Part shown: piece by piece, positions 1-62,175 of the stretch
Layout of the letters: every line of letters begins with the position of its first letter
Numbering within the stretch: the first letter of the stretch is position 1
Origin: a virus
Lineage: Duplodnaviria > Heunggongvirae > Uroviricota > Caudoviricetes
Direction: 5' to 3' (one strand)
Virus record (IMG/VR): IMGVR_UViG_2724679538_000004
Span: 32,001 to 96,000 of that record
DNA length: 64,000 nucleotides
Position numbers and translations under genes: made by a program
The notes under the pieces: model-generated
Databases searched by the model: none
What the model was told of the DNA's origin: nothing
What the model saw: only the letters and a program-made list of their open reading frames with translations

Positions 1-53
1 AGAACGGATACGACGACTTTAAGGCAAAACTACTGACAGTTGGAGATCTGCGC

Positions 54-2770: not shown

Positions 2771-2888
2771 AATAATCTAGATAATAAGTAAGTACTGATC
2801 TATTATTTTCGCGCTCGTGAGAGCCACGATGAAACCAACGCCCAAAGCGCTTAGCGCCATTGGCCAAAATCACAACAAGGAGAAACAC

Positions 2889-6267: not shown

Positions 6268-6330
6268 GTATGTTGAAAATGTATAAGTACTTACTTATTA
6301 TTAGCACACAATAACCACATAGGAAAACAC

Positions 6331-8217: not shown

Positions 8218-8256
8218 ATTTACACTACGATATATATAAGTTAGCATTTACCTATC

Positions 8257-11913: not shown

Positions 11914-12167
11914 CCCTCCAGAACGCATAATGGCGTAGAGTTTAACTACGCCTCATCAAAATCGCTCTCATGACGTTCTACAGTGTCACTGTCTGATTTT
12001 TAGCCACATATAAAAGCAAAGTTACGCCATTTGGAATAGGTATATACTTACTTATAAATCTTGTATATTAAGGCGCTCGTTTCATTCCTAACATACCGTT
12101 ATGCATAGTTGTTTACCTTCTTATTACTCTTAAAATTTGTATCAAAATAACCACAAAGGAAAAACAC

Positions 12168-16699: not shown

Positions 16700-16720
16700 G
16701 ATAGGTAAGTACTTATCTAT
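16700..16720. repeat. intergenic palindrome GATAGGTAAGTACTTATCTAT (family member)
   Basis: Between the RuvC-like gene and nrdA. Confidence 0.75.
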
Positions 16721-16765
16721 TAACATGGGCCACTACATTTAGTGGCCCTTTTTATTTGGTGATAC

Positions 16766-20407: not shown

Positions 20408-21283
20408 ATGAATTTTACCAAACTGAAAGACCACCTAAAGATTGCCACGGATCGTCTCGTTGGTTTCAAGGCTGAACCATATGAAATCAATGAAGGTCAC
20501 GTTATGGCGACGGAAGCTATTTACCAAATGGTCGATCAGTTTCATGAACTCTTTCAACACCCGCGTCGTGTGGTGCCAACACCGGAATTACTTCGTCTCC
20601 GTGCCAGATTGATTCATGAGGAAGCTGTAATAGAAGGCATCCCAGCCGCACAAAAAGGAGACATTGAGCAGCTGCTGGATGCAATGGCTGATTTTCTCTA
20701 TGTAGGTGTAGGCACAATGGTCGCAGTTAAAGGTGGTATTTCTACAGGTATGACTTACTACACGCAGGAACAAAGCATTGATCGCTTTATTGAGACATTC
20801 TTTGTGCCTCAGAATACTGTGTTCGATGACATGGCTATTCCATTCAAAGAAGCTCAGCAGGCGGCTGTGATGCTTGAAGAGTTGGCTGACAAACTTGAAA
20901 AGAAAACCATGAGAGATCCTGAACTGATTCAGGAGCTACGCCGTGTAATGAATAAAATTTACGTCGCGTGCATGATGACATATCGACTCGCTGATTTCTT
21001 GGGTGTCGATGTTGTTGAGCTGGTACGTGAGATTCATCGTTCCAACATGACTAAATTATGGCCTGCGGATATGGAAGAGCGCCAAAAGGCTGTAGAGAAC
21101 TGCAAATACGACAAACACGATCTAAGTTTTCGCCATGCGGACGGGACAGACATGATGATAGGCTTTCGTGTTTCAGATGGAAAAATACTCAAATCGCCAA
21201 CATACAGTGACGTTGATCTTACTGCGTTTGTAGCGCAGGCGAAGTCTTCTGCAATATATGATGAAGTTAAAAAATTATTGTAG
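20408..21283 (+). CDS. MazG-like nucleotide pyrophosphohydrolase domain protein (N-terminal), C-terminal part unknown
   Basis: EAIYQMVDQFHE and HEEAVIEGIPAAQKGDIEQLLDAMADFLYV resemble the EExxE...D helices of all-alpha NTP pyrophosphatases. Confidence 0.45.
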   Translation: MNFTKLKDHLKIATDRLVGFKAEPYEINEGHVMATEAIYQMVDQFHELFQHPRRVVPTPELLRLRARLIHEEAVIEGIPAAQKGDIEQLLDAMADFLYVGVGTMVAVKGGISTGMTYYTQEQSIDRFIETFFVPQNTVFDDMAIPFKEAQQAAVMLEELADKLEKKTMRDPELIQELRRVMNKIYVACMMTYRLADFLGVDVVELVREIHRSNMTKLWPADMEERQKAVENCKYDKHDLSFRHADGTDMMIGFRVSDGKILKSPTYSDVDLTAFVAQAKSSAIYDEVKKLL

Positions 21284-21465
21284 GTAGTTACTTATGTGTG
21301 TATATTAATTTTGTGTACTAACTACACCTGGTAAGAGAATCTTCGTATATTTTGGTGGCCATGTGCCACCATTTTTTTTGTCATCTGGTCTTGCCTGGTT
21401 TTCGCGTGTAAACTCTCACTTATGAATAATAGGTATGTACTTATCTATCTTTTTGTGGGGTTTAT

Positions 21466-26405: not shown

Positions 26406-26425
26406 ATAGGTAAGTAGTTACCTAT
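26406..26425. repeat. intergenic palindrome ATAGGTAAGTAGTTACCTAT (family member)
   Basis: Immediately upstream of the Dam-like gene. Confidence 0.75.
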
Positions 26426-27214: not shown

Positions 27215-27445
27215 ATGGTCTATCAAACAAACGTTGTAGCGCTCGTTGAGAGCGATTTTCTAGCCCAGGCGCGTGAAATGCTTAAAGATCGCGAGCGGGC
27301 GTTTAATTTGTATGAATGGGCACTCAAATGCCTACATCTTGGCGAGCATAAAGAACTTGTTGAACAGCTGTTAGGTGAGTTGATTAATGAGGTGTTTGCC
27401 TTAAACGTCCAGCTACATGGGCGAGAAAGTAACCAACCCCAATAA
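27215..27445 (+). CDS. hypothetical protein
   Basis: 76-aa ORF with AAGGAAACACAC RBS context. Confidence 0.45.
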   Translation: MVYQTNVVALVESDFLAQAREMLKDRERAFNLYEWALKCLHLGEHKELVEQLLGELINEVFALNVQLHGRESNQPQ

Positions 27446-27469
27446 TAGATAAGTACCTACTATTCATAT

Positions 27470-28044: not shown

Positions 28045-28641
28045 ATGACGACGAAGACACCAGCCCGATCGCAAGCAAAAACTCTCAAAAAAGCCAAAAA
28101 CAAAAATTCTCCCCGCACCAATCACACAACGCCTGTCGTAGAGTTCAATCCCCAGCTTAAAACCGTGAAAATCTTTAGTGATGGCTCTTGCCTTAAAAAT
28201 CCGGGTGGTCCTGGCGGTTACGGTATCGTTCTCCAGTATCGTGGTGAGGAACGCGAGTTCTCAGATGGTTTTCATAGCACCACTAATAACCGCATGGAGA
28301 TGATGGGCGCACTCATCGGGCTGGAGCGTTTGAAATATCCATGCAACGTTATTTTGTACTCTGATAGCCAGTATCTGAAAAACGGCATGACACAGTGGAT
28401 GAAATGGTGGAAACGAAATGGATGGATGACTTCTGATAAAAAACCGGTAAAGAATGTTGATCTGTGGAAGCGTCTGGATGAGGCCGCAAGTCGACATAAT
28501 GTTCGCTGGAAGTGGGTTAAAGGCCATGCGGGACATCGTGAAAACGAGATCTGTGATCGTCTTGCTAAGATTGCAGCATTCACTGCCGCTGATACTCCAT
28601 TTAAAAAAGATTTAGGTTTTTTGAATCAAAATAGTAAGTAA
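28045..28641 (+). CDS. rnhA: ribonuclease HI with basic N-terminal extension
   Basis: [71 protein letters not shown] closely match E. coli RNase HI; ATG 28045 with GGAG RBS (track ORF starts at GTG 27994). Confidence 0.9.
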
Positions 28642-28783
28642 GTATTTACCTATTATTTAGATTAAGGTATTCTGATCACCGTCAGGATGACAATGTGTCG
28701 GTGAGACACAGTTCCAGGATGGAACGGGAAAGGCGGCTGGTTAATGCCAGCCGCAACTCTTTCTGACACTGGATGGAGTCCTA

Positions 28784-30164: not shown

Positions 30165-30170
30165 TAACAA

Positions 30171-30190
30171 GGGCCGACTATGGCCCTTTT
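30171..30190 (+). terminator. rho-independent terminator (GGGCC-loop-GGCCC then TTTT)
   Basis: Hairpin plus T-run; overlaps the track ORF start at 30180, supporting ATG 30207 for the next gene. Confidence 0.6.
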
Positions 30191-30206
30191 GTTTCATGGA
30201 GCGCGT

Positions 30207-32461: not shown

Positions 32462-34147
32462 ATGACAACTGCCCTTTCAATCACTGACACCTTCAAAACA
32501 AGTTCAGAAGTTGACTATCGAAAAGAGCTTAACCTCATCCATAAAATCGTTGCAGAGTGCGAACGCGAGATCGCTTTCATGCGCCAGGTACATGATTACG
32601 TATATGGCGATGAACGCCATAAGATGATTAATCGTTTGTTACGACTTAACTACCGTCCAGATGATGAGAACGCTCGTTTTAATAACATTGTACTGGACAA
32701 GGCTGATCTCGAATGGGTGAAGCAGAACATCTGGGCTGAATACTGGAAAAAGGTCACTGATATGACTAACGTTCTGCTGATCATGCCAGCTTCCCGTCGC
32801 GAGGAGTGGCGTGAGCAATTTATCGAGGGCAAGCAGGAAATCACCAAAACTGACAGAACTGGCTACCAGATGAAGGTTAAGGAGTTCGTTGGAGTACCCG
32901 AGTTCAAGGTAGAAACTGTCATACCAACGATGATTAGCCTTCTAAATGACAGACATAAATATCTTTCTGAGCGCGTGTACGGTTTGTTTAAGGTGCTGAG
33001 TCCTGCACATAAGACCAACAAAACGAACGGCTTTAGCGAACGTTTGATCATTGCCAATTGCATTACTGATTTTTGGCGGGATAGCGTAAGTGTTAATTAT
33101 AAGCTTGAGGACTACATTGACGATCTGCGGGTATTGCTGCATTTCTTCGCGCACAAAGAGTTCATTACTATTAATCGCAGTTCGCAGATGCTATCCCTGG
33201 CATACAGAGCTAATGGCTGCAACACCGGTGAGTGGGTGAGCGTCGACGGCAATTTAATGCGTGTGAAGATGTTCAAGAACGGTAACGTTCACTTCGAAAT
33301 CCACCCTGACGTGGCCTGGAAGTTGAATGAAGTTCTGGCGCACAGTATGCCATCAGCCATACCTGCACCATGTCGTACCGCGCCAAAAACGCGAGCGCCA
33401 AAAGAGTTTGGCACTATTCATAAGATTATTTCAGACCCTGTACGAATCGCTTTGCGAGACGGACGACGTACCCGTAATCAAGAAGCCTGGTACTTTTCTG
33501 ATTCATGTTTGCAGAAAAATCAGGTGGAAGAGTTGGAGCGTACATTAAGTTTTATTGGAGGAGTACGGGAGAACAGTCAGTGGACGTTCCCCTATGATGC
33601 GACACAAACAATAAACAGTATCGTTGATACGGGGCTAGTTCCAGAAGCGAAATCACACCAGTTCTATCCAACACCGCATGTAATCGCTGAGTATGTGGCG
33701 AGAGCGATCGATCATAAGCCTGGAGAAACTCTTTTGGAACCGGAAGCCGGGCGTGGTGATTTGTTGTCCTGTATTGACGCTAACCGGGAAGATATTACCT
33801 GCATAGAATTAGCTCCCCTTTTTGCGGATATCCTCCGTTCAAAGGGGTACGCGAATACGATTTGTTGCGACTTCTTGAAATGGTCAGAGAGTAATGCAGG
33901 CTATCAATTCGACAAAATCGTTATGAATCCCCCCTACTCTTTTAATCGCTATAAAGAGCACACGCTATCTGCTCTTGGGCATCTGAAAGTTGGAGGCAGG
34001 CTGGTGGCCGTGTTGCCGGGAAACTCGCCTTCGCTTAATTGGATGACTTTGGATAATTACGTTTATGCAAAGGGGAAATCTTTCACTGGTGAGTTCGCTG
34101 ATACGGGGGTTACTGTCAGCGTGTATGTCTTCAAACGCGTAAAATAA
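32462..34147 (+). CDS. DNA methyltransferase with large N-terminal domain of unknown function
   Basis: C-terminal region has AdoMet motif I LEPEAGRGDLL followed by catalytic motif IV MNPPYS; ATG at 32462 (track ORF begins at TTG 32444). Confidence 0.75.
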   Translation: MTTALSITDTFKTSSEVDYRKELNLIHKIVAECEREIAFMRQVHDYVYGDERHKMINRLLRLNYRPDDENARFNNIVLDKADLEWVKQNIWAEYWKKVTDMTNVLLIMPASRREEWREQFIEGKQEITKTDRTGYQMKVKEFVGVPEFKVETVIPTMISLLNDRHKYLSERVYGLFKVLSPAHKTNKTNGFSERLIIANCITDFWRDSVSVNYKLEDYIDDLRVLLHFFAHKEFITINRSSQMLSLAYRANGCNTGEWVSVDGNLMRVKMFKNGNVHFEIHPDVAWKLNEVLAHSMPSAIPAPCRTAPKTRAPKEFGTIHKIISDPVRIALRDGRRTRNQEAWYFSDSCLQKNQVEELERTLSFIGGVRENSQWTFPYDATQTINSIVDTGLVPEAKSHQFYPTPHVIAEYVARAIDHKPGETLLEPEAGRGDLLSCIDANREDITCIELAPLFADILRSKGYANTICCDFLKWSESNAGYQFDKIVMNPPYSFNRYKEHTLSALGHLKVGGRLVAVLPGNSPSLNWMTLDNYVYAKGKSFTGEFADTGVTVSVYVFKRVK

Positions 34148-34208
34148 TAGGTAAATACTTACTTAAAATATGTAAGAATGTAGTTAGTTGAAGACGAGAG
34201 AAAAGCAC

Positions 34209-40090: not shown

Positions 40091-40110
40091 TACTGTATGT
40101 ACATACAGTA
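40091..40110 (+). promoter_or_regulatory. LexA operator (SOS box) TACTGTATGTACATACAGTA
   Basis: Perfect CTGT-N8-ACAG palindrome 17 bp upstream of the humD-like start. Confidence 0.85.
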
Positions 40111-44635: not shown

Positions 44636-44761
44636 GCATGTGCAAGCAGTAGTTAGTCGAGTGTACGACAGCCCTGATTCCTTACAGGGCTTTTTTGTAT
44701 TGTAAGTAACTACTTACAATAATAGAATTACCTCGTTCGTTAACTTACATACAGGGAGAGT

Positions 44762-49427: not shown

Positions 49428-49952
49428 TCAAAAAGGCAAAATTCGTTCAACCCAATCGAACAAAACAACTATTTTTCTACCGTTCTCGACACGTAGTGTA
49501 ACCTGACAAGCATCTGCGCCTGCTGACACCCCCTCAATTTCACGGCCATCCGCCATGTACACCCTTATAGATTTGTTTGCTTTATGGGCCTGGTTGCAAA
49601 TTGCAAAAAAATCACGGCGTGATGGCCGATTGTCAACATAATCAGGGTGAACTGTTAATCGACCTTTGAAATCGTGAGCGATACCGTCAACCACACCTGA
49701 TTCAATTGTACTAATGCGTTCAAGTGGAAGCCTTATACGATTTTCTTTGTCAAAAGGGGCTGGGCAAAGATCAACTTTGTTACGAGATGGCATGAGACCA
49801 TAAACGTACATGCAAAACGCCTGGCCATCTTCGAGAGTGGCCCTTACAGGAATTTGTTCTCTGCGCCAGAACATCAGGAGGTTTTCAATATTCTTATAAT
49901 CTCGCGGCCAGACCTCCGCTGGCACGCCGTAGGTGATGTCTTTAGTCGTCAT
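49428..49952 (-). CDS. hypothetical protein
   Basis: ATG at 49952, 4 nt after the lipoprotein stop; the longer track ORF would overlap the upstream gene. Confidence 0.5.
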   Translation of the reverse strand: MTTKDITYGVPAEVWPRDYKNIENLLMFWRREQIPVRATLEDGQAFCMYVYGLMPSRNKVDLCPAPFDKENRIRLPLERISTIESGVVDGIAHDFKGRLTVHPDYVDNRPSRRDFFAICNQAHKANKSIRVYMADGREIEGVSAGADACQVTLRVENGRKIVVLFDWVERILPF

Positions 49953-49956
49953 GTCA

Positions 49957-50376
49957 TTATAAAGTTGTTGGCAATATATCCATTGTACCATCCCAGGTTG
50001 TGAAGACCCGATATGTTTTAGCATCGTTTTGTTTTAGCCTTATTTCTCGCTCCATCCGAGAAGGGTTAAATGCGCAAAGCCCTGAGCTTTCAATTGATGT
50101 GCCAACTATCCACTCACCTTCATTAAGAAAGAAGGTGACTTTTTCTCCTGGTTTCAACTTGGCGGATGTCTCACCATTGATAAAAATGGAGGCATAACAG
50201 CCTGAGCCTACAAGACCTTTGTCTCGAACAATCGTTAATGTTGATACATTTGGCGTCTGGTATTTGAAGATTCTTTCTTGAGGCGCAACTTTCGCTTTTG
50301 AAACTGAGATAGAGGAGGATGAACACCCAATTAGAGAGGCCCCAAACATTAAAATAATGAATTTTGTAGCTTTCAT
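49957..50376 (-). CDS. lipoprotein
   Basis: MKATKFIILMFGASLIGCSSS is a signal peptide with lipobox LIGC. Confidence 0.6.
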   Translation of the reverse strand: MKATKFIILMFGASLIGCSSSSISVSKAKVAPQERIFKYQTPNVSTLTIVRDKGLVGSGCYASIFINGETSAKLKPGEKVTFFLNEGEWIVGTSIESSGLCAFNPSRMEREIRLKQNDAKTYRVFTTWDGTMDILPTTL

Positions 50377-53115: not shown

Positions 53116-53179
53116 AAATCTCTTTCCTTCGTGCCTTTTGTGTGTTATTTGGCTATCATAATAAGTAAGTGCTTATCTA

Positions 53180-53878
53180 ATGGATTGTATCAGCAAAATG
53201 GATGTGAAAATCACGATTTTGCAGGTTGAAGTGGCCAACCTGCGTCCAAATTCATGGAACACCAACTCAGTAGGTGCTCAAAACTTCGAAAAACTGAAAG
53301 GATCTATCGAAAAATTGGGCTTTTTTAAGCCTATTTTGGCGCGTGAGCTTAATGACGGCATTTATGAAATCCTCGGCGGCGAACATCGCTGGCGTGCGGC
53401 CATTGAACAAGGAATTTCAACGGTTCCAGTGCTATCGGTTGGCAAAATTAGCGACTTAGTAGCGAAACAGATGTCACTCGTGGACAACGAACGCTACGGC
53501 GAAGACGATCAGATTGCTTTGCAGCGCTTTATTGAAGAAATTCAGTCTGAACTCGATTACCAGTTGTCAGAAATTGCCCCTTATGACGATGAAATTTCTA
53601 TGGTTCTTGCAAAAGAGGCTGCAATTGACCTCGAAGCTCTTGAGGCACTGTCGCGTGGGGAGGATGAGCCTGTAGATACTGACAAGCGTGAAAAAATCGA
53701 ACGCGCCGGAACAGATCATCAGACCATGCGTTTCAAAGTTACCTTTGATGCGTCAGATCGTGTTGCCGACACAATAAAAAACATCATCAAAGAACAAGCA
53801 ATTAACACTGGCAATGAAATGGAGAACGCTGGTGAGGCTTTGGTGTGGCTGGTCGACTACTACAAGGAGCGTATGTAA
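53180..53878 (+). CDS. ParB N-terminal domain (ParB/sulfiredoxin-fold) protein
   Basis: ILGGEHRWRAA resembles the ParB box II GxxRxxA motif. Confidence 0.6.
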   Translation: MDCISKMDVKITILQVEVANLRPNSWNTNSVGAQNFEKLKGSIEKLGFFKPILARELNDGIYEILGGEHRWRAAIEQGISTVPVLSVGKISDLVAKQMSLVDNERYGEDDQIALQRFIEEIQSELDYQLSEIAPYDDEISMVLAKEAAIDLEALEALSRGEDEPVDTDKREKIERAGTDHQTMRFKVTFDASDRVADTIKNIIKEQAINTGNEMENAGEALVWLVDYYKERM

Positions 53879-54546
53879 TGACCAAAAAGTTTGAAATCGT
53901 ATATCGCAATCCGGCAGATCTCATTCCTTACGAGATGAATGCCAAAAAGCATGATGAACAGCAGATCCGAGATCTGGCCGCAGCCATTAAAAAGCGCGGA
54001 TTTGACCAGCCAATTACGGTCGATAAGAACGACGTAATTATTACTGGCCACGGCCGCCGTGAGGCTGCAATTTTTGCTGGGCTTGAGCGCGTACCAGTTA
54101 TTGTTCGCGATGATCTGAGTGATGACGAGGTTCGTGCGAAGCGCCTTGAAGATAACCGACTCGCCAGCATTGATTACGATGCAATTAAGCTACAGAAAGA
54201 GCTTGAGTCGCTTGTTCTGGACGATATCGAGGTTTTCGGCTTTGAAGAGCGAGAGTTGAATGTTCTCGTTGGCAGCATGACTGAGGAAATGGATACCGAC
54301 TCGTTAGTTATCGATCTGGGCGAAGAAACCAAACGACAGAAGGATGAGCACACCGAAATCAGTCGTGAAGTTGCAGCGGAAGAAGTGCGCGTTGTCGACG
54401 TATTGGGCTTTAAAACGCTCCCTGCTGGCTCTGCCATTGTTGTTGGTGATTTGCTTGCCCACATGGAAGAAATGACTGGAGAAAGCGGGGTAGACGCATT
54501 TGTGGCATATGCGGAGAAGATCTCTTCCGGGGAGATGACTGCATGA
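53878..54546 (+). CDS. second ParB N-terminal domain protein
   Basis: ITGHGRREAAIFAGL ParB-box-like motif; AGGAG RBS before ATG 53878 (TAATG overlap with previous stop). Confidence 0.6.
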   Translation: MTKKFEIVYRNPADLIPYEMNAKKHDEQQIRDLAAAIKKRGFDQPITVDKNDVIITGHGRREAAIFAGLERVPVIVRDDLSDDEVRAKRLEDNRLASIDYDAIKLQKELESLVLDDIEVFGFEERELNVLVGSMTEEMDTDSLVIDLGEETKRQKDEHTEISREVAAEEVRVVDVLGFKTLPAGSAIVVGDLLAHMEEMTGESGVDAFVAYAEKISSGEMTA

Positions 54547-55181
54547 GCAAATACATCATCAACGTATCGTTTCAGACTCGCGTAAATAAAACCACGCGCA
54601 CGTTGGAAATCGCCGAGTCGTTCGGGCTTGGCCTTGACGAAAAAGAGTGGACGCTTTACGACAATCTGGAGCTGGAAGTTAAGCAGGGCGATGTAGTGTA
54701 CATCACCGGCCAATCCGGTTCAGGCAAATCAGTTGTGCTGCGCGAACTGCAACGCCAGATGAAAGATGAAGGGCTTTCTGTGGCCTCCATCGATGATTTT
54801 ACATTCGACAATGATGTTAACGTCATCGACCAGCTAGGGAAAACAACCAGCGAAGCGCTGGGGCTGCTGTCTATGGCCGGATTGAATGACGCCTATCTCT
54901 TTGTGCGCAAACCTTCCGAAATGTCTGACGGTCAGAAATATCGTCTCAAGATCGCCAAGCTAATTGAGTCAGGCGCAAAAGTGTGGGCTGCGGACGAGTT
55001 CGGTGCTGTTCTTGATCGTGTAACGGCGCAGGTCGTGGCGTCCAATCTACAGCGTGCAGCCCGTAAAGTTGGGGCGACGGTGATGGTTGCGACAACTCAT
55101 GAGGACCTTAAAAACGCTCTTCGTCCTGATATGCAGATCACTAAGCACTATAAAGAGCGAGTGAAGGTGGAATATGCCTGA
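54543..55181 (+). CDS. stand-alone ABC-type ATPase
   Basis: Walker A GQSGSGKS, signature-like MSDGQKYR, Walker B VWAADEFGAVLD, H-loop TTHE. Confidence 0.7.
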   Translation: MSKYIINVSFQTRVNKTTRTLEIAESFGLGLDEKEWTLYDNLELEVKQGDVVYITGQSGSGKSVVLRELQRQMKDEGLSVASIDDFTFDNDVNVIDQLGKTTSEALGLLSMAGLNDAYLFVRKPSEMSDGQKYRLKIAKLIESGAKVWAADEFGAVLDRVTAQVVASNLQRAARKVGATVMVATTHEDLKNALRPDMQITKHYKERVKVEYA

Positions 55182-55428
55182 TTTGAAGATTGTAGAGCTG
55201 AAGCCATCGAAAGAGGATGACAATAACAATGTTGAGGTCATCCGCTTGCTGGAAGAAGCACTCCAGTACGCCAGAGAAGGCAAATCCCAGAGTCTGGCGC
55301 TGCTGATGATCAATAACGACGGCAGTGTCATGGATTGCTGGCATAACGGTGGGCGTCCTTACGTCATGGTTGGGGCGATGGAATCGCTTCGCCTGGACTT
55401 CATCAATGCCAATATAGAGCGCAGGTGA
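55174..55428 (+). CDS. hypothetical small protein
   Basis: 84-aa ORF overlapping both neighbours. Confidence 0.45.
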   Translation: MPDLKIVELKPSKEDDNNNVEVIRLLEEALQYAREGKSQSLALLMINNDGSVMDCWHNGGRPYVMVGAMESLRLDFINANIERR

Positions 55429-56324
55429 TCGACATGACAGACATCATCATCAAACGCTACCGCCTTGAAGAGTTTCCGCGTCATCTGGACTTTCTGGAGC
55501 GAATGACTGTCACAAAGGGGACTGTAGAGGACTGGCACGCTCTTAAGTCGCTTCACTACAAAACTGACGGCAAACCTTTCGCACCAACTTATTATCGCTG
55601 CGAACTGGATGGCCGTCTGGTGGGCGTCGTGGTAATGGCTTACCCGAAACTTTTGCTGGCACCTCGCCATCGCATGTTTCCTAAGTTGAAACCAACCACT
55701 AACACCACCGTGGCGAACCAGTACTGGGGGCGATACGTGAATAACAACTTTGCGGTGATCAGTCGCTCAGTTGTGGATACTCAGTACCGTGGCGTTGGCG
55801 TCTCTTATCGAATGATTAACCTGGTTAGCAGGATGCATGATCGGCCAATAATTGAGATCCAGTCCTCAATGAGCAAATACAATCCCTTCGCCATGAAAGC
55901 AGGGTTCAAGTTCATCCGCCCTGAGCGACCGAAGAGCTATGAAAGTGCACTGCGTGTGTTCCAGCGCCATTTCCGCTCCGACCCGGGAGATAACGAGGCG
56001 ATCGTCAAAGAGTTGTTCGCAATGAGCGAGTCCCGTCGTCGCCGTGCACTGCGTGATCTGGTGGCGGACTACCACAAGAACAGTTCCCTGGCAAAAGCTG
56101 GGCGGAATCGTGGCACGACGATTCAGGACATTGCCGACAGTCTCGTGGACGAGGCCAGCATAGTGAAGCTGCTCAAGGACATTCACAACCTGAGCTTTAC
56201 GTCTCCGTTGTATGGTGTGTACCGAAACCCTGACTTTGGCCGTCGACTGCCTGATTCGCTGCCACTGCTGGCATTCGACAAACAACCTTTGGATAAACCG
56301 TTAGAAATTGCTTTACCGGCATAA
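55425..56324 (+). CDS. GNAT-like acetyltransferase-fold protein with C-terminal extension (tentative)
   Basis: VVDTQYRGVGVSYRMINLV fits GNAT motif A (R-G-x-G); GTG start 55425 or ATG 55434. Confidence 0.45.
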   Translation: MIDMTDIIIKRYRLEEFPRHLDFLERMTVTKGTVEDWHALKSLHYKTDGKPFAPTYYRCELDGRLVGVVVMAYPKLLLAPRHRMFPKLKPTTNTTVANQYWGRYVNNNFAVISRSVVDTQYRGVGVSYRMINLVSRMHDRPIIEIQSSMSKYNPFAMKAGFKFIRPERPKSYESALRVFQRHFRSDPGDNEAIVKELFAMSESRRRRALRDLVADYHKNSSLAKAGRNRGTTIQDIADSLVDEASIVKLLKDIHNLSFTSPLYGVYRNPDFGRRLPDSLPLLAFDKQPLDKPLEIALPA

Positions 56325-56333
56325 GGATTTGCC

Positions 56334-56600
56334 ATGACGTTAACCGATAAACAAAAGGACATTATCAAAACGCTCAATCTCGGTTATGAACGAGGACATC
56401 TACTTGATCTGGACGAATTGCTTGAAGTTTTGCCCTACAAAACATCTAAGCAAAGTATCCAGTTCTCTATTCGCGCACTGATCAAAAAAGGGCTGGTGGA
56501 GAAAGGAAACACTCGCCAGCGCAGTGATACTCGATATCACCGTCGTACTCTTGGGTTAACTACTTTAGGTCGAGCACGAGCCAAATTACTGGTGATGTAA
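56334..56600 (+). CDS. small basic protein, probable winged-helix DNA-binding protein
   Basis: 88-aa ORF with GGAT RBS; basic C-terminus. Confidence 0.4.
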   Translation: MTLTDKQKDIIKTLNLGYERGHLLDLDELLEVLPYKTSKQSIQFSIRALIKKGLVEKGNTRQRSDTRYHRRTLGLTTLGRARAKLLVM

Positions 56601-56703
56601 TAGGTCTGGGGTGCTTATTTAAAGCCTGCGTCTGTATATATAAATAATAAATAACTTATTAAATATATACGGAAGCAGGTTCAATAAGACACGCCCAGAC
56701 CTA
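56601..56703. other. nested inverted-repeat element (outer TAGGTCTGGG / CCCAGACCTA; inner CCTGCGTCTGTATATAT / ATATATACGGAAGCAGG) around an AT-rich core, directly upstream of terS; candidate packaging or terminase-binding site
   Basis: Inverted repeats seen directly; position between the ParB-like operon and the small terminase subunit. Confidence 0.35.
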
Positions 56704-56716
56704 ATTTGACACCCCA

Positions 56717-56758
56717 GAAAACAAGTTGGTTAGTGAATGCAATAAACAAGTTGTTTTA
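56717..56758 (+). promoter_or_regulatory. two copies of the AAACAAGTTG(T/G)TT promoter/operator motif upstream of terS
   Basis: AGAAAACAAGTTGGTTA and AATAAACAAGTTGTTTTA. Confidence 0.45.
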
Positions 56759-56796
56759 GAGCGCATGGACGCGCTCTGTGTGTTTTAGAGGGATCT

Positions 56797-57429
56797 ATGA
56801 CTGTCGAAAAAGACGAGGGAAAAACTCGCCTGACACCAGCGGAGTGGGCCGAAGCAGAAGCCAAATGGACGTCAGGCGAATATACACTCTCAAAGCTGGA
56901 GGAAGAGTACGGCATTCGCCGTGAAACACTCTCCAGACATTTCAAAAAGCGAGGATTGGAGAAAGGCGCAGACTCTGTTGGGAAGATGGTTCGCGAGTCT
57001 CTCAAATCTGACGCAGAGCTTCGTGCTAAAGCCCGTGCAGAAAAGATAGAAGAACGTCGTACACGTTATGACGGCTGGGCATATGCCTTGGGGCAGATGG
57101 TGATGGTCGAAGTCACTACTGCTAAACGTGAGGGAAAACCTTTAGGGGGGATTGAGGATTCTCTTAAGAGCTTACAGAGAGCAAGTAATACCCTTGCAAA
57201 ATGCTTTGAAATTTCGTCCAAAGCGTTGGGCATGGATCATGCGGAAAATGACGAGGAAGAAATTCCTAACCTGGTATTTGGCGAACTTACGCCTTCTCAG
57301 GTGGCGAAATTACGTCAGGAAGACGATGAGCCTGAAATCATCGATGACGAATTGCTTGAGGCACTAGAGGAAGAAGCTCTTAGCGAACTGGACGCCAGTG
57401 AGGAGGAGAGCGAAGGGGGAGATAAGTAA
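56797..57429 (+). CDS. terminase small subunit (putative)
   Basis: N-terminal HTH-like TLSKLEEEYGIRRETLSRHF, acidic C-terminus; immediately upstream of the large terminase. Confidence 0.6.
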   Translation: MTVEKDEGKTRLTPAEWAEAEAKWTSGEYTLSKLEEEYGIRRETLSRHFKKRGLEKGADSVGKMVRESLKSDAELRAKARAEKIEERRTRYDGWAYALGQMVMVEVTTAKREGKPLGGIEDSLKSLQRASNTLAKCFEISSKALGMDHAENDEEEIPNLVFGELTPSQVAKLRQEDDEPEIIDDELLEALEEEALSELDASEEESEGGDK

Positions 57430-58685
57430 TGTCGATCCCGTCTTCTCTGAGTCTTGTGCAGCTGCATTCTGGGCAGATGAAGGTGTTCCAGTCGCCACAT
57501 CGATTTAAGGTGGTATGCGCAGGTCGTCGCTGGGGTAAGTCCAGGTTGTCGATCTCAACCATAATTCGTGCGGCAGCAAAGAGCAAAAAGCAAAGAGTCT
57601 GGTACGTAGCGCCGACCTATCAAATGGCACGCCAGATTCTGTGGGATGACCTACAGGAAGTTCTGCCTCGCAAGTGGGTTCGTAAAAAGAACGACACCAC
57701 GATGACAATCGTGTTGAAGAACGGTTCTGAGATCGCCCTCAAAGGTGCTGATAAACCTGACACTCTGCGCGGCGTAGCGTTGCATTTTGTAGTGCTTGAT
57801 GAATTTCAGGATATGAAGGCTGATACCTGGTACAAGGTATTACGACCTACTCTTTCATCGACACGAGGCGGTGCACTGATCATTGGTACGCCAAAAGGAT
57901 TCTCGGAATTTCACAAACTGTGGACCATCGGCCAGAACATTGAGCTGCAAAGAAAAGGACAGTGGAAGAGTTGGCAGTTTGTTACCGCTGATTCTCCGTT
58001 TGTGCCTACTGCCGAAATCGAAGCGGCAAAGAACGATATGGACCCGAAGTCCTTTGCGCAGGAATACCTGGCCAGCTTCGAAAACATGTCAGGTCGTGTT
58101 TATTACCCGTTTGATCGTAACGTGCATGTGAAGCCACTCCAGTTCAATCCGAAACTACCTATTTGGGTTGGGCAGGATTTCAACATAGACCCGATGTCTT
58201 CTGTAATTTTGCAACCACAGCCAAACGGTGAACTATGGGCAGTTGATGAGTTGGTACTCTTCTCATCAAACACGGCAGAAGTGTGTGACGAACTGGAACG
58301 ACGCTATTGGCGATGGAAATCGCAGGTGACGATTTTTCCTGACCCCGCTGGGGCATATCGTCAGCACGCGCGAGGTGAATCAGATGTCGATATCTTTAAA
58401 GAAAAGGGATTCTTACGTGTTGACTATTCGAAGAAGCACCCGCCGATTGCAGATCGTGTGAATGCTGTAAACCGTATGCTGATGAGCGCATCAGGTGAAG
58501 TTCGTCTCTATGTCGATCCTAAGTGCAAGCACCTCATAGATTCTCTTGAAAAGGTTATCTACAAGCCCGGATCTCGTGACATGGATAAGTCAGGTGGGGT
58601 TGAGCACAGCGCAGACGCATTGGGCTACCCAGTTCATCGTAGGTATCCGGTGAAAAATCGTGTTATTCTTGGTGGATCTAGATAG
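57429..58685 (+). CDS. terminase large subunit
   Basis: Walker A-like VCAGRRWGKS, Walker B VVLDEF, C-terminal nuclease-like region; ATG overlaps terS stop. Confidence 0.8.
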   Translation: MSIPSSLSLVQLHSGQMKVFQSPHRFKVVCAGRRWGKSRLSISTIIRAAAKSKKQRVWYVAPTYQMARQILWDDLQEVLPRKWVRKKNDTTMTIVLKNGSEIALKGADKPDTLRGVALHFVVLDEFQDMKADTWYKVLRPTLSSTRGGALIIGTPKGFSEFHKLWTIGQNIELQRKGQWKSWQFVTADSPFVPTAEIEAAKNDMDPKSFAQEYLASFENMSGRVYYPFDRNVHVKPLQFNPKLPIWVGQDFNIDPMSSVILQPQPNGELWAVDELVLFSSNTAEVCDELERRYWRWKSQVTIFPDPAGAYRQHARGESDVDIFKEKGFLRVDYSKKHPPIADRVNAVNRMLMSASGEVRLYVDPKCKHLIDSLEKVIYKPGSRDMDKSGGVEHSADALGYPVHRRYPVKNRVILGGSR

Positions 58686-58701
58686 GTAAGTACTTACCTA
58701 T
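58682..58701. repeat. intergenic palindrome ATAGGTAAGTACTTACCTAT (perfect copy of a dispersed family)
   Basis: Family members also at about 2785, 6283, 7906, 12035, 16700, 21283, 21425, 26406, 27443, 28631, 34146, 44701, 53161, 62118. Confidence 0.8.
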
Positions 58702-58719: not shown

Positions 58720-60294
58720 ATGGAATTGGATGACAAACAAATTAAAGATTTAGTGGCAAGACGCCACCCTGAATACGAAAAGAAAAAGACACATTGGGAC
58801 TTCCTCGCCAGCACTTACGCTGGTGGGCGTGGTTGGTTCGCTGACAACATCTTTCGTTATTTCAAAGAAGGCGATCAGGAGTTTAAGGAACGTCTTGAGC
58901 GTGCTTACCGCTTCAATCACACCCGTGAAGTAGTAAACCTCATTAATAAATACCTGTTTAAAGAAGATATCCATCGAAACACAGAGGAAGCGCCTGAGCA
59001 GATCCGTAACTTCTGGAAAAGAGCGACACGCCAGAATGCATCTATCGACTCATTTATGGCTGCTATCGATTTGCAATCGTCAATCTATGGCCGTATTTGG
59101 GTTGTTGTAGATAGCACAATGAATGGTGATGTGGAGTCAGTCGCTGATGAGAAGAGGAAGAATGCACGTGCCTATGCCTACTGGATTTCCCCTCAACAAA
59201 TGCTGGATGTGGCATGGGATGATGACGGCAATATGTTATGGGCGTTAATTGTGGAAGTTGCTCGTGATGATGCAGATCCATTTACTTCAACCGGTCAGGA
59301 ATACCAACGTTATCGTCTGTGGACACAAAACGAGTGGTATCTGTTCCGTGAAGAAGTTAAGAAGAGCGCTGGCGGAGCCGGTCGCCGTCAGGCAAAAGTT
59401 ATTTTAGAGGATAGCGGTGAACATAATCTCGGCGTAGTTCCCGTGTTTCCTGTTGATTGTATTGGAGAAAGCGAATCACCGTATTTCAGTCCATCGTTAA
59501 TCGATGACATCGCATATCTTGATCGTGCTGTAGCCAACTATTTGTCTAACCTTGATGCCATTATTCAGGATCAAACTTTCAGTCAGTTGGCTATCCCCGT
59601 GCAGTCGATGATGCCTGGTGATGAAAGCCATAGCAAGGTGCTGGAAATGGGCACAAAACGAGTTTTCACCTACGATTCTGAAGGTGGAAACCAGCCGTTT
59701 TATCTTTCTCCAGATCCAAAACAAGCTCAGATGATCATCACTACGATTAAGACGGTGATTAATGAAATCTACCATTCAGTTGGTGTTGCTGGCGAACGAA
59801 CGAAGCAGGATAACGCACAGGGAATCGATAACTCTTCTGGTGCCGCTAAGATGTATGACTTCCAGCGAGTTAACAGTCTGCTGGTCACAAAAGCAGAGCG
59901 TCTTGAAAGGGCAGAGCGACAAATTATGCAACTTGTCGCTAAATGGATGGGAGTCGAGCTGGATGAAGACCATTCTCTAATTGCTTACCCTGAGAGTTTT
60001 GATATTCGCGGTCTTACTGACGAATTTGCTGTTGCTGAGAAGCTGTCAATGCTTCAAGCGCCTGATTCTGTACGTCGTCGTCAGATGGAAATGCTCATCG
60101 AGAAGATTTTCCCGAATATCACTGAGGCGATGAAAAAGGAATTTGATAAAGATCTCTTGAATTTTCCGCCAAAAAATGATCTAAATACCCTTGAAAATAA
60201 GTCAGTACTTACTTATCATCGAGATACAGCTCAAGAAACCGAGCAAGATCAACCCCGAGGGAGTGGGGACTCATCTACTCAAGAAACCGAGTGA
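58720..60294 (+). CDS. portal protein (putative, by position and size)
   Basis: 524-aa protein between the terminase and scaffold genes. Confidence 0.6.
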   Translation: MELDDKQIKDLVARRHPEYEKKKTHWDFLASTYAGGRGWFADNIFRYFKEGDQEFKERLERAYRFNHTREVVNLINKYLFKEDIHRNTEEAPEQIRNFWKRATRQNASIDSFMAAIDLQSSIYGRIWVVVDSTMNGDVESVADEKRKNARAYAYWISPQQMLDVAWDDDGNMLWALIVEVARDDADPFTSTGQEYQRYRLWTQNEWYLFREEVKKSAGGAGRRQAKVILEDSGEHNLGVVPVFPVDCIGESESPYFSPSLIDDIAYLDRAVANYLSNLDAIIQDQTFSQLAIPVQSMMPGDESHSKVLEMGTKRVFTYDSEGGNQPFYLSPDPKQAQMIITTIKTVINEIYHSVGVAGERTKQDNAQGIDNSSGAAKMYDFQRVNSLLVTKAERLERAERQIMQLVAKWMGVELDEDHSLIAYPESFDIRGLTDEFAVAEKLSMLQAPDSVRRRQMEMLIEKIFPNITEAMKKEFDKDLLNFPPKNDLNTLENKSVLTYHRDTAQETEQDQPRGSGDSSTQETE

Positions 60295-61229: not shown

Positions 61230-62111
61230 ATGCCATTACTGCGTGAAGAAGCTGAAAAGCTGTCTAATAACGAACTTGAACAGGGCGTGATTGAAACCAT
61301 CATCGATCGCGATGACTTGTTCGCAATCCTGCCGTTCATGAAGATTAATTCCAAGGCGTACCTGTACAATCGTGAGGCTACCCTGAGCGAAGCAGAGTTC
61401 ATCGACGTGAACGACACCATCACCGAAGGTGCAGCAACCTTCACTGAACATGTAGCGAAGCTGCGTATTCTGGCGGGTGATGTAGACGTCGACAAATTCC
61501 TGGCAACCACGATGGCAGATACCAACAACCAGCTGGCTATCCAGGTTCGTCAGAAAGTAAAAGGTCTGGCTCGCGCATTCCGTCGTAATCTGATTCTGGG
61601 GGACTCCAGTTCCAACAATAAGGCGTTTGATGGCATTCCTCGCCTGATGCACGCCGATCAGAAGATCGATATCGCAAAAGCCGCTATGACCTTCTCAATG
61701 TTCGACGAACTGGTCGATGCGGTTAAAGATCTTGGTGCTGACTGCATCATGATGCGCTCAGAACATCTGCGTGCATATCGTGCACTGCTGCGTACCGTTA
61801 ACGTTGGTCCGTCTGAAATTATGATGGAGAATTTCGGTCGTCCGATGCTGTGCCATAACGGTGTGCCGTTCATCGTAAACGACTTTATTCCGCTGACCAC
61901 CGAGAAGGATGCAGCAGACATCTACTGCCTGCACCTGTCGGAAGAAAATGGTGTAACTGGTCTGTATGGCGGCGACAACGCAGGTATTGTCGTAGAGAAT
62001 ATTGGTACTGTTCAGAACAAAGACGCTACGCGTACTCGTGTGAAATGGTACTGCTCTCTGGCGAACAAGCACGACAAGGCTATCGCTGCGCTGACCAATG
62101 TAAAAATTTAA
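61230..62111 (+). CDS. major capsid protein (putative)
   Basis: 293-aa protein following the scaffold gene; GGGAATTGATAG RBS region; followed by a strong terminator. Confidence 0.65.
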   Translation: MPLLREEAEKLSNNELEQGVIETIIDRDDLFAILPFMKINSKAYLYNREATLSEAEFIDVNDTITEGAATFTEHVAKLRILAGDVDVDKFLATTMADTNNQLAIQVRQKVKGLARAFRRNLILGDSSSNNKAFDGIPRLMHADQKIDIAKAAMTFSMFDELVDAVKDLGADCIMMRSEHLRAYRALLRTVNVGPSEIMMENFGRPMLCHNGVPFIVNDFIPLTTEKDAADIYCLHLSEENGVTGLYGGDNAGIVVENIGTVQNKDATRTRVKWYCSLANKHDKAIAALTNVKI

Positions 62112-62117
62112 CCTAAA

Positions 62118-62139
62118 TAATAGGTAAGCACTTACCTAT
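62118..62139. repeat. intergenic palindrome AATAGGTAAGCACTTACCTAT (family member)
   Basis: Immediately after the capsid gene stop. Confidence 0.75.
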
Positions 62140-62148
62140 GCTTTCAAG

Positions 62149-62175
62149 GGGTGGGCTTTGCGCCCACCTTTTTTC
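62149..62175 (+). terminator. rho-independent terminator (GGGTGGGC-TTTGC-GCCCACC then TTTTTT)
   Basis: Hairpin plus T-run after the capsid gene. Confidence 0.7.

What the first reader, a model, noticed from the sequence alone, without database searches (positions are those of the whole stretch)
58682..58701. Dispersed family of ~20-bp intergenic palindromes (consensus ATAGGTAAGTACTTACCTAT)
At least 14 copies occur, always between genes (about 2785, 6283, 7906, 12035, 16700, 21283, 21425, 26406, 27443, 28631, 34146, 44701, 53161, 58682, 62118). They could form perfect 8-9-bp RNA hairpins but lack T-runs, so they are not ordinary intrinsic terminators. Candidates are binding sites for a dimeric regulator, RNase III-type processing sites between cistrons, or hairpin promoters for a phage-specific polymerase.
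Basis: seen in the sequence. Interest (0 to 1): 0.55.

Follow-up and report, generated by a model that had tools for sequence, protein, structure and literature searches.

The report
Dispersed repressor-operator palindromes in phage-plasmid
The repeated 20-bp palindrome is real and is most likely a double-stranded DNA binding site, placed between about 14 gene pairs of an SSU5-like phage-plasmid, through which a dimeric phage repressor keeps the lytic genes silent; it is not an RNA hairpin.

Summary
The window is an SSU5-like phage-plasmid, about 89% identical to Escherichia phage Cyrano. ATAGGTAAGTACTTACCTAT occurs 13 times at 4 or fewer mismatches (0.03 expected). Twelve copies are intergenic and one lies inside the portal gene. 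The same sites sit at orthologous junctions in Cyrano, SSU5 and Klebsiella pJN2-26, about 20-25 per genome.

Across 59-65 copies the two halves vary independently. 85.2% of cells pair, against 85.2 +/- 0.6 in shuffles. A:C at pair 4/17 is as common as G:C. RNA folds are weak (0 to -7.8 kcal/mol). This argues against RNase III sites and hairpin promoters. It supports a dsDNA site read by a symmetric dimer.

The likely binder is an XRE-type repressor encoded next to the integrase, outside the window. It is expressed in Cyrano lysogens and is present in about 1000 SSU5-like plasmids. A conserved motif variant lies just downstream of, and overlaps by 2 bp, the predicted -10 of its own promoter. 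Distant relatives carry lineage-specific versions, both dispersed and at the repressor gene: GTAGGTATTTAAATACTTAT in Moellerella and ATCAGTCAGTACTGACTGAT in Acinetobacter.

Some copies fill the 17-bp spacer of good sigma-70 promoters. Others sit in junctions too tight for a promoter, which resembles mycobacteriophage L5 stoperators and P1 C1 operators. Binding and the direction of regulation are inferred, not shown.

The parts
2784..2803 (.). Copy ATAAGTAAGTACTGATCTAT (3 mismatches), between the UvsY-like gene (ends 2770) and the gp32-like ssb gene. TAGATA-17-TATTAT promoter-like.
   Evidence: orthologous copies at Cyrano 52659, SSU5 52175, pJN2 99981
6279..6298 (.). Copy ATGTATAAGTACTTACTTAT (4 mismatches). 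It lies 10 nt after the recA-like gene's terminator (6243-6262). It fills the 17-bp spacer and the first three bases of the -10 of TTGAAA-17-TATTAT (10/12 match).
   Evidence: orthologues at SSU5 55695, Cyrano 57446
8236..8255 (.). It is intergenic after 7942-8217. An ATG follows 1 nt after the motif in all four genomes.
12036..12055 (.). Copy ATAGGTATATACTTACTTAT (3 mismatches), between the ASCH-domain gene and the sbcD-like gene.
16701..16720 (.). Copy ATAGGTAAGTACTTATCTAT (1 mismatch), between the ruvC-like gene and nrdA. TTGATA-17-TAACAT is promoter-like. An intrinsic terminator follows at 16727-16748, and the predicted start site falls in its 5' arm.
21429..21448 (.). Copy ATAGGTATGTACTTATCTAT (2 mismatches), upstream of thyX (GTG at 21466) and 58 nt after terminator 21353-21371.
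26406..26425 (.). Copy ATAGGTAAGTAGTTACCTAT (1 mismatch), 13 nt upstream of the adenine-methyltransferase ATG (26439). Motif-to-ATG spacing is 11-13 nt in all four genomes.
27445..27464 (.). Weak copy ATAGATAAGTACCTACTATT (5 mismatches), intergenic.
28634..28653 (.). Copy GTAAGTAAGTATTTACCTAT (3 mismatches). Motif positions 6-8 are the RNase H gene's TAA stop.
34147..34166 (.). Copy ATAGGTAAATACTTACTTAA (3 mismatches), immediately after the DUF4942 methylase-like gene. TAAAAT is -10-like.
53161..53180 (.). Copy ATAAGTAAGTGCTTATCTAA (4 mismatches), in the divergent region between the UvsW-like helicase operon (-) and the ParB_N gene (+, ATG at 53198). The -10-like TATTAT/TATAAT lies on the minus-strand side. 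Conserved in all four genomes.
58682..58701 (.). The perfect copy. Motif positions 2-4 are terL's TAG stop. The portal gene's Shine-Dalgarno sequence and ATG (58720) follow within 18 nt. The junction site is kept even in a relative with 40-60% amino-acid identity (L039).
60197..60216 (.). Copy ATAAGTCAGTACTTACTTAT (3 mismatches), inside the portal gene about 100 bp before the next gene. A7->C removes a stop codon. It fills the spacer of TTGAAA-17-TATCAT (10/12 match).
62120..62139 (.). Copy ATAGGTAAGCACTTACCTAT (1 mismatch), after the major capsid gene. An intrinsic terminator follows at 62149-62165 plus a T-run.
21280..21299 (.). Doubtful degenerate copy GTAGGTAGTTACTTATGTGT (6 mismatches). 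It overlaps the MazG-like gene's TAG stop.

Best explanation
**What it is.** The palindrome is a double-stranded DNA operator. Its two 10-bp half-sites (ATARGTAAGT) are each read by one subunit of a symmetric dimeric helix-turn-helix protein.

**Likely binder.** The most likely binder is the phage-plasmid's XRE-type immunity repressor (Cyrano CYRAN_45 family, about 128 aa). It is encoded beside the integrase, outside this window.

**Proposed mechanism.** In the plasmid-prophage state the repressor occupies about 14 sites in the window (20-25 per genome).
- At promoter-type sites the operator covers positions -29 to -10. This is the whole spacer and the start of the -10 hexamer, so RNA polymerase is shut out.
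- At junctions too tight for a promoter, such as terL/portal, it may act as a roadblock to read-through, as L5 stoperators do.
- A copy at the repressor's own promoter would give autoregulation.
- Induction, possibly through the Ant-like anti-repressor at 30180-31022, would free all lytic units at once.

**What is shown:** the site family, its conservation, the independence of its halves, and its co-occurrence and co-variation with the repressor locus.

**What is inferred:** who binds, and that binding represses.
For: - **Enrichment.** 13 copies at <=4 mismatches against 0.03 expected.
- **Conservation.** The consensus and the orthologous positions are the same in Cyrano, SSU5 and Klebsiella pJN2-26, at 80-89% DNA identity.
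- **No pairing selection.**
  - 85.2% of cells pair, against 85.2 +/- 0.6 in shuffles. The covariation score is 0.135 against 0.132.
  - Pair 4/17 shows A:C 20, G:C 21, G:T 12 and A:T 7, which is what independence predicts.
  - Symmetry extends through the central GTAC.
- **Link to the repressor gene.**
  - In 54 IMG/VR loci, with alleles 66-100% identical, the promoter TTTACA-16-TAATAT is followed by the conserved variant ATC(G/A)GTAAGCACTTACCA....
  - The variant starts on the last two bases of the -10 hexamer and spans the predicted transcription start.
  - Some alleles also carry a half-site, ATAGATAAGT, over the -35.
- **Co-variation in distant lineages.**
  - The Moellerella plasmid has a dispersed GTAGGTATTTAAATACTTAT and a copy upstream of its repressor, which is 42% identical.
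  - A. baumannii pPB364_1 has ATCAGTCAGTACTGACTGAT, with 12 sites in 40 kb. Three of them cluster in the 600-bp repressor control region.
  - The recognition-helix region differs accordingly: KNANNLSLIKSGK, TAHNNISMIKSGK and KRPNVLSMIKSGE.
- **Expression.** In Cyrano lysogens CYRAN_45 is expressed. Of the other genes expressed there, nine are on the minus strand and the plus-strand ones lie in stretches without strong sites (PMC9928086).
- **SSU5 itself.** It lacks both the repressor and the integrase. That would fit loss of lysogeny, though its lifestyle was not checked here.
- **Promoter overlap.** 6279 and 60197 fill the 17-bp spacer of 10/12-match sigma-70 promoters. The minus-strand UvsW operon has its -10 on the minus side of 53161.
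- **Possible induction partner.** An Ant-like anti-repressor is encoded in the window.
Against: - No binding data exist, and the proposed repressor gene is not in the window.
- Most sites lack a recognisable -35. The upstream flank is only A/T-rich, which is more typical of activator-dependent promoters.
- The flanks are nearly symmetric, so the TATnAT reading may be part of the site rather than a -10.
- At several sites (dam, portal, CYRAN_31) the start codon lies at motif position 31-39. A transcript started from the putative -10 would then lack the Shine-Dalgarno sequence.
- 62120 and its orthologues are followed by a complete terminator.
- The SSU5-group immunity region holds only one full variant site plus a half-site, not a classical operator cluster.
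- Other conserved small DNA-binding proteins could equally be the binder. These include the wHTH at 56334-56600, the CYRAN_37 family, two ParB_N proteins and an FljA-like protein.
Confidence: 0.5

Rival explanations
1. Activator-dependent lytic promoters of the P1 late-promoter type. A phage-made dimer binds the palindrome, centred near -20. It substitutes for the missing -35 and turns on all lytic units. The copy at the repressor promoter would shut the repressor gene off during lytic growth.
For: - P1 late promoters are AAGTnACTT-N4-TAnAAT. The core here is AAGTACTT-N3-TATnAT, which is nearly the same sequence and position.
- Most sites lack a -35.
- -10-like hexamers are more frequent on the gene side (28 against 18 of 65 at >=5/6 matches). 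The same holds for -35 matches (14 against 5).
- In Acinetobacter the gene-side end of the site drifts towards TATAcT.
Against: - No Lpa homologue was found by tblastn in the window, Cyrano or SSU5.
- No activator or sigma-like protein appeared in Pfam or PHROG scans.
- Sites precede early-type DNA-metabolism genes as well as late genes.
- The outer positions (TAGGT) are more conserved than the P1-like core.
- At the repressor promoter the site spans the predicted start site, which is a repressing position.
- 6279 and 60197 already have good -35 elements.
- Three sites cluster in the Acinetobacter immunity region.
Confidence: 0.2
2. Sites for another DNA-level system. One option is a ParB/KorB-like global regulator or centromere network using the two ParB_N proteins at 53198-54546. 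Another is the small wHTH protein at 56334-56600.
For: - Site 53161 lies 18 nt upstream of the first ParB_N gene and is conserved in four genomes.
- RK2 KorB binds 12 dispersed palindromes (own knowledge).
- These proteins are conserved at 84-99% identity across the group.
Against: - Sites track lytic gene junctions rather than the par or rep regions.
- The ParA operon has no site upstream.
- No HTH was detected in the ParB_N proteins.
- The best-conserved regulatory copy is at the XRE repressor promoter in three lineages.
Confidence: 0.1
3. RNA-level element: an intercistronic hairpin in the polycistronic mRNA. It would serve as a processing site, a stabiliser or a translational operator, for example for the FljA-like protein at 49428-50024.
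For: - Nearly all copies are co-oriented with transcription and sit just 5' of Shine-Dalgarno sequences.
- The perfect copy folds at -7.8 kcal/mol.
- The window encodes an FljA-family protein. FljA prevents fliC mRNA translation.
Against: - There is no covariation.
- A:C mismatches are as frequent as expected by chance. Sense G:U is not favoured (55 against 44).
- Several copies fold at 0 to -2 kcal/mol.
- The 'loop' GUAC is itself symmetric, which only makes sense in duplex DNA.
- The stems are too short for RNase III.
- A copy lies upstream of the oppositely oriented repressor gene.
Confidence: 0.06

Closest known systems
Mycobacteriophage L5 (cluster A) gp71 repressor with its operators and 'stoperators'
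   Same: - A single immunity repressor has more than 20 sites spread over the whole genome.
- Sites lie both at promoters and in short intergenic spaces, inside early and late operons.
- It is proposed to block both initiation and elongation (PMC9283540).
   Different: - L5 sites are 13-bp, asymmetric, orientation-dependent and bound by a monomer with two DNA-binding domains.
- Here the site is a 20-bp dyad with independent equivalent halves, implying a dimer.
- The candidate repressor is a small XRE-type protein.
- The host is Gram-negative and the element is a plasmid-prophage.
Phage-plasmid P1 C1 repressor operator network
   Same: It is also a phage-plasmid in which many separate lytic transcription units each carry a copy of the repressor's operator. 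The repressor's own gene carries copies too (annotated in NC_005856).
   Different: - P1 operators are 17-bp asymmetric sites.
- P1 late genes are not under C1 directly but under Lpa.
- Here one motif is found at early-type and late-type genes alike.
- The proteins were not compared here.
P1 Lpa-dependent late promoters (AAGTnACTT-N4-TAnAAT)
   Same: - The palindromic core is nearly identical (AAGTACTT).
- It lies at almost the same distance upstream of a -10-like hexamer.
- The -35 is usually absent.
   Different: - The core has 8 bp, not 9, and lies 3 bp, not 4, from the -10.
- The conserved site is 20 bp, with the strongest conservation outside the P1-like core.
- There is no Lpa homologue.
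- The sites are not restricted to late genes.
RK2/IncP KorB (ParB-family) operator network
   Same: About a dozen copies of one palindrome are dispersed over a plasmid at or near promoters, giving global silencing (own knowledge).
   Different: - KorB sites are 13 bp (TTTAGCSGCTAAA) and are bound by a ParB-family protein.
- Here the link to the ParB_N genes rests on a single adjacent site.

Membership tests
Operator of a dimeric HTH phage repressor | Dyad symmetry with half-sites about 10 bp apart, extending through the centre | tested here: met
   Consensus ATAGGTAAGT|ACTTACCTAT. T2/A19, A3/T18 and T6/A15 are almost invariant.
Operator of a dimeric HTH phage repressor | Half-sites are constrained by sequence, not by pairing, so the halves vary independently | tested here: met
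   85.2% of cells pair, against 85.2 +/- 0.6 in shuffles. Covariation is 0.135 against 0.132. Pair 4/17 counts equal the independence expectation.
Operator of a dimeric HTH phage repressor | Copy or copies at the repressor gene's own promoter | tested here: met
   Met in relatives, because the gene lies outside the window. A conserved variant overlaps the end of the -10 of TTTACA-16-TAATAT in 54 loci. Copies also lie upstream of the Moellerella and Acinetobacter repressor genes.
Operator of a dimeric HTH phage repressor | Overlap with the promoter elements of repressed genes | tested here: inconclusive
   Clear at 6279, 60197, 16701 and 2784. Most other sites lack a -35. Strand bias is weak, and some junctions are too tight for a promoter.
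Operator of a dimeric HTH phage repressor | Demonstrated binding by the repressor | not testable with these tools
   Needs EMSA, footprinting or ChIP.
L5-type stoperators | More than 20 repressor sites genome-wide in short intergenic spaces, including within late operons | tested here: met
   15-22 sites at <=4-5 mismatches per genome, plus weaker intergenic ones. Examples are the terL/portal, post-capsid, tail and lysis junctions.
L5-type stoperators | Asymmetric 13-bp site whose orientation follows transcription, bound by a monomer | tested here: not met
   The site is symmetric. Mismatches are equal in the left and right halves (92 against 97).
P1 Lpa-dependent late promoter | 9-bp inverted repeat AAGTnACTT exactly 4 bp upstream of TAnAAT | tested here: not met
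   The core is the 8-bp AAGTACTT, 3 bp from TATnAT. It resembles the P1 box but is not the same.
P1 Lpa-dependent late promoter | Lpa homologue encoded by the element | tested here: not met
   tblastn of P1 Lpa against the window, Cyrano and SSU5 gave no hit better than E=0.7. No such PHROG was found among about 40 window ORFs.
RNase III / intercistronic RNA hairpin | Stable, extended RNA helix maintained by compensatory changes | tested here: not met
   Folding energies are 0 to -7.8 kcal/mol and stems are at most 8-10 bp. There is no covariation.
Hairpin promoter for a phage RNA polymerase (N4 type) | Phage-encoded RNA polymerase and a structure-dependent promoter | tested here: not met
   No RNA polymerase appears in the annotations of Cyrano, SSU5 or pJN2-26 or in the window scans. 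There is no pairing selection.
Intrinsic terminator | G+C-rich stem followed by a T-run | tested here: not met
   The stem is A/T-rich and has no T-run of its own. The terminators at 16727 and 62149 are separate elements.
ParB/KorB-type centromere or operator | Palindrome bound by a ParB-family protein and associated with par genes | tested here: inconclusive
   One site abuts a ParB_N gene. There is no site at the ParA operon. Binding is not testable here.

The most novel reading that the evidence does not exclude
The whole SSU5 supergroup of phage-plasmids may be governed by one genome-wide silencing network. The supergroup includes Salmonella plasmids of pHCM2 size, Y. pestis plasmids of pMT1 size, and Klebsiella and Acinetobacter AMR carriers.

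In this reading a small symmetric XRE dimer uses 20-25 dispersed palindromes both as promoter operators and as stoperator-like elongation blocks. Repressor helix and palindrome would co-evolve to define immunity groups.

This would be the first stoperator-type system outside actinobacteriophages, and the first that uses a symmetric site.
Probability: 0.3. Interest if true: 0.6.

Novelty: new member of a known kind. Interest (0 to 1): 0.45.

Why it matters
- **Clinical reach.** SSU5-like phage-plasmids are common in clinical Enterobacteriaceae and Acinetobacter and carry resistance genes. About 1000 PLSDB plasmids encode the candidate repressor, including plasmids from Yersinia pestis and Salmonella.
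- **Gap in knowledge.** None of the searches here found a description of their lysis-lysogeny control or of this motif.
- **What the finding gives.** It defines a concrete regulon of about 20-25 sites per genome. It names a candidate repressor and gives lineage-specific operator variants. These can be tested directly.
- **Possible uses.** They could predict immunity groups, support reporters or induction tools, and help annotate transcription units in this family.

Tried and rejected
- **P1 Lpa.** tblastn against the window, Cyrano and SSU5 found no homologue. Pfam and PHROG scans of about 45 window ORFs found no Lpa-like activator, sigma factor or RNA polymerase.
- **RNA reading.** It was rejected on the covariation test and on folding energies. 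Rfam found nothing at the sites.
- **FljA-like protein as an RNA-binding partner.** I considered it. The paper I read gave no operator sequence to compare, and dyad symmetry without pairing selection cannot be read by an RNA-binding dimer.
- **Host LexA.** The only CTGT-N8-ACAG box (40093) sits at the umuD-like gene and is unrelated to the motif.
- **Scans of public collections with TARGTAAGTACTTACYTA.**
  - In IMG/VR, multi-copy loci are all SSU5-like.
  - Most other hits, in both collections, are single copies of a different A/T-rich palindrome, (G)TAAGTAAGTACTTACTTA(C), in unrelated phages and diverse bacteria.
  - They do not inform on this family or on a host regulon.
- **Wider search for repressor relatives.** A profile search added only the Acinetobacter type already held.
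- **The site at 44700.** I rejected it as a member because its half-sites are 4 bp further apart.
- **Unread paper.** A 2026 preprint on an SSU5-like phage-plasmid, which mentions promoters often, could not be opened.
Full report
**What the window is.** The window is a phage-plasmid of the SSU5 group. Megablast gives about 89% identity to Escherichia phage Cyrano (pLF82) over window 1-25000 and about 80% to Salmonella phage SSU5. Gene order follows Cyrano:
- a T4-like recombination and nucleotide-metabolism block (uvsY, gp32, recA-like, sbcCD, ruvC, nrdAB, thyX, frd, dam, rnh);
- an accessory region;
- a minus-strand block that includes a UvsW-like helicase;
- two ParB_N genes;
- terS, terL (57429-58685), portal (58720-60294) and major capsid (61230-62111).

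**Checking the observation.** ATAGGTAAGTACTTACCTAT has 10 matches at <=3 mismatches, against none in 100 shuffles. Counts are 13, 14 and 19 at <=4, <=5 and <=6 mismatches, against 0.03, 0.17 and 1.4 expected.

- eleven are good copies;
- 27445 and 21280 are weak;
- 7909 is only a half-site;
- 44700 has the same half-sites, but 4 bp further apart.

Two good copies, 8236 and 60197, were missed.

Twelve of the 13 good copies lie outside ORFs. At 58682 and 28634 the motif provides the upstream gene's stop codon, and 34147 overlaps a stop codon by one base. 60197 lies inside the portal gene in all four genomes compared. There position 7 is C, which turns an in-frame TAA into TCA.

The motif carries TAG and TAA in two frames on both strands. 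Its absence from coding sequence is therefore partly forced.

**Conservation.** The same consensus, at orthologous junctions, is found in three relatives:
- Cyrano has 15 sites at <=4 mismatches, and about 10 more intergenic sites at 5-6 mismatches.
- SSU5 has 18 sites.
- Klebsiella phage pJN2-26 has 22 sites at <=5 mismatches.

A relative with only 40-60% amino-acid identity (IMG/VR contig 2713896750_000003) has the variant TTAAGTAAGTACTTACTTAA. It keeps the terL/portal junction site and adds others in the tail region.

**RNA or DNA?** Over 65 copies the two halves vary independently. At pair 4/17 the counts are G:C 21, A:C 20, G:T 12 and A:T 7, exactly the product of the column frequencies. 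Sense-strand G:U (55) is not favoured over A:C (44).

The formal test on 59 distinct copies agrees. 85.2% of cells pair, against 85.2 +/- 0.6 in shuffles, and the covariation score is 0.135 against 0.132.

RNA folds are marginal: -7.8 kcal/mol for the perfect copy and 0 to -5 for the others. The central GTAC, which would be the loop, is itself symmetric.

These results argue against a hairpin under selection, whether an RNase III site, a stabiliser or a hairpin promoter. They fit a duplex-DNA site whose two 10-bp halves are each read by one subunit of a symmetric dimer. Position 4 tolerates either A or G.

No RNA polymerase, sigma factor or Lpa-like protein is annotated in three relatives or found in about 45 window ORFs.

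**Relation to promoters and terminators.** The last three bases (TAT) plus the downstream flank often make TATnAT at motif positions 18-23.

Several copies sit in promoter-like settings:
- 6279 and 60197 fill the 17-bp spacer of TTGAAA-17-TATTAT and TTGAAA-17-TATCAT, two of the three best plus-strand sigma-70 matches in the scanned 60 kb.
- 16701, 2784 and the variant at 44700 are also promoter-like.
- 6279, 44700 and 21429 follow intrinsic terminators, as expected at the start of a new transcription unit.
- At 53161, which serves the minus-strand UvsW operon, the -10-like TATTAT/TATAAT lies on the minus side.

The promoter reading is nevertheless not general:
- The -35 is usually absent and the flanks are nearly symmetric.
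- Strand bias is weak. -35 matches of >=4/6 number 14 against 5 of 65, and -10 matches of >=5/6 number 28 against 18.
- At several sites the Shine-Dalgarno sequence and start codon follow so closely that a transcript started there would lack its ribosome-binding site. For dam, the ATG is at motif position 32-34 in all four genomes.
- 16701 and 62120 are followed by terminators.

The sites therefore seem to be of two sorts. Some are operators inside promoters. Others are bare sites in tight junctions.

**Who binds?** In Cyrano a 128-aa HTH protein, CYRAN_45, is encoded next to the integrase. RefSeq records name its homologues XRE-family or HTH regulators. Pfam matches to HTH_19, HTH_3 and HTH_31 are below threshold. 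CYRAN_45 is one of the genes expressed in LF82 lysogens, and Cyrano is induced by ciprofloxacin (PMC9928086).

SSU5 itself lacks both the integrase and this gene. I did not check SSU5's lifestyle here.

Homologues occur in about 1000 PLSDB plasmids from Klebsiella, Escherichia, Enterobacter, Yersinia pestis, Salmonella and Citrobacter, among others. More distant homologues occur in Moellerella and Acinetobacter. They also occur in the closest relatives of this window (L136/L137).

In 54 IMG/VR loci, with alleles 66-100% identical, the promoter TTTACA-16-TAATAT carries a conserved motif variant, ATC(G/A)GTAAGCACTTACCA. The variant starts on the last two bases of the -10 and runs across the predicted transcription start. 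Many alleles also have a half-site, ATAGATAAGT, over the -35.

**Co-variation in distant lineages.**
- *Moellerella wisconsensis plasmid* (repressor 42% identical). The dispersed motif is GTAGGTATTTAAATACTTAT, with the inner AAGT changed to ATTT on both halves. A copy lies 73 bp upstream of the repressor start.
- *A. baumannii pPB364_1* (repressor 38-40% identical). The motif is ATCAGTCAGTACTGACTGAT.
  - It has 12 copies in 40 kb of lytic genes.
  - Three of them cluster in the 600 bp between the repressor gene and its divergent neighbour.
  - In gene orientation the promoter-side end drifts to TATAcT.

The stretch around the recognition helix differs between lineages: KNANNLSLIKSGK, TAHNNISMIKSGK and KRPNVLSMIKSGE. 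In three lineages, then, the dispersed palindrome and the palindrome at the repressor gene change together.

**Best explanation.** The palindromes are operators of the immunity repressor. They hold the lytic transcription units silent in the plasmid state.

Three published or annotated observations fit this:
- Of the other genes expressed in the Cyrano lysogen, nine are on the minus strand, and the plus-strand ones lie in stretches without strong sites.
- The ParA-CYRAN_30 unit is expressed and is bounded downstream by site 31296, after which the replication genes are silent.
- An Ant-like anti-repressor is encoded at 30180-31022.

I put about 0.8 on 'duplex-DNA site for a dimeric protein'. 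I put about 0.5 on the full statement, that the binder is this repressor and acts negatively.

**Rivals.**
- *A P1-Lpa-like activator (0.2).* This is the serious rival. P1 late promoters are AAGTnACTT-N4-TAnAAT, and the core here is AAGTACTT-N3-TATnAT, usually without a -35.
  - Against it, there is no Lpa homologue.
  - Sites occur at early-type genes.
  - The strongest conservation lies outside the P1-like core.
  - The repressor-promoter copy sits in a repressing position.
  - Some sites have good -35 elements.
- *A ParB/KorB-like or other DNA-binding protein (0.1).* This rests mainly on site 53161 next to a ParB_N gene.
- *An RNA role (about 0.06).* It is disfavoured by the pairing statistics.

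**Comparison with known systems.** The closest analogues are the following.
- Mycobacteriophage L5 gp71 operators and stoperators: more than 20 sites at promoters and in short intergenic spaces, blocking initiation and elongation.
- The P1 C1 operator network.

Both of these use asymmetric sites. The site here is symmetric, and the candidate repressor is a small XRE-type protein.

I found no description of this motif or of SSU5-group operators in the searchable literature. One possibly relevant 2026 preprint could not be read.

I rate the finding as a new member of a known kind, of moderate interest.

Noticed in passing
window 665-1083 (-): Full-length match to the Rfam cspA thermoregulator (185.7 bits). 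It lies in a region that matches cold-shock genes (cspB) of other coliphages. The phage-plasmid therefore carries a cold-shock protein gene with its thermosensing 5' UTR.
   Followed up: no
window 40093-40108: Perfect LexA-box core, CTGTATGTACATACAG, 19 nt upstream of a UmuD/HumD-like Peptidase_S24 gene (40127-40516). This is the arrangement annotated for humD in P1. It is the only such box in the window.
   Followed up: partly
window 49428-50024 (-): Protein of the FljA family (Pfam Flag1_repress, E=2.5e-83; weak Hfq-like C-terminus). It is conserved at 75-79% identity in Cyrano, SSU5 and pJN2-26. In Salmonella, FljA blocks translation of fliC mRNA. Its role on a phage-plasmid is unknown.
   Followed up: partly
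window 53198-54546 and 54543-56324: Two tandem ParB_N-domain proteins, about 32% identical to each other, are followed by ABC-type ATPase genes just upstream of the terminase genes. ParA lies far away in relatives. This may not be a partition module.
   Followed up: no
window 30180-31022: Ant-like anti-repressor (phrog_63, E=2e-45). It is a possible induction partner of the XRE-type repressor. The listed ATG lies inside a hairpin (30169-30188), so the true start is uncertain.
   Followed up: no
window 44700-44719: Palindrome TTGTAAGTA-AC-TACTTACAA has the family's half-site, but 4 bp further apart. It lies directly after terminator 44670-44691 and within TTGTAA-17-TAGAAT. It could be a decayed or differently spaced site.
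   Followed up: partly
window 16727-16748 and 62149-62165: Intrinsic terminators lie 6-9 nt downstream of motif copies. At 16701 a start from the overlapping promoter-like element would fall inside the terminator's 5' arm. Only read-through transcripts from upstream would then form the hairpin.
   Followed up: partly
L014, L016, L023, L028 and other IMG/VR loci; L142-L261 genome loci: A different A/T-rich palindrome, (G)TAAGTAAGTACTTACTTA(C), occurs mostly as single copies in unrelated phages and in MAGs of many phyla, such as Terriglobia, Bacteroidota and Bacillota. It is more frequent than I would expect by chance. In one phage group it is flanked by a second inverted repeat (ggagttgtaacctctttac...).
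   Followed up: partly
window 5164-6237 versus Cyrano 55065-57404: The recA-like gene is 357 aa here and in SSU5 but 779 aa in Cyrano. This suggests an insertion, possibly an intein, in Cyrano's copy.
   Followed up: no
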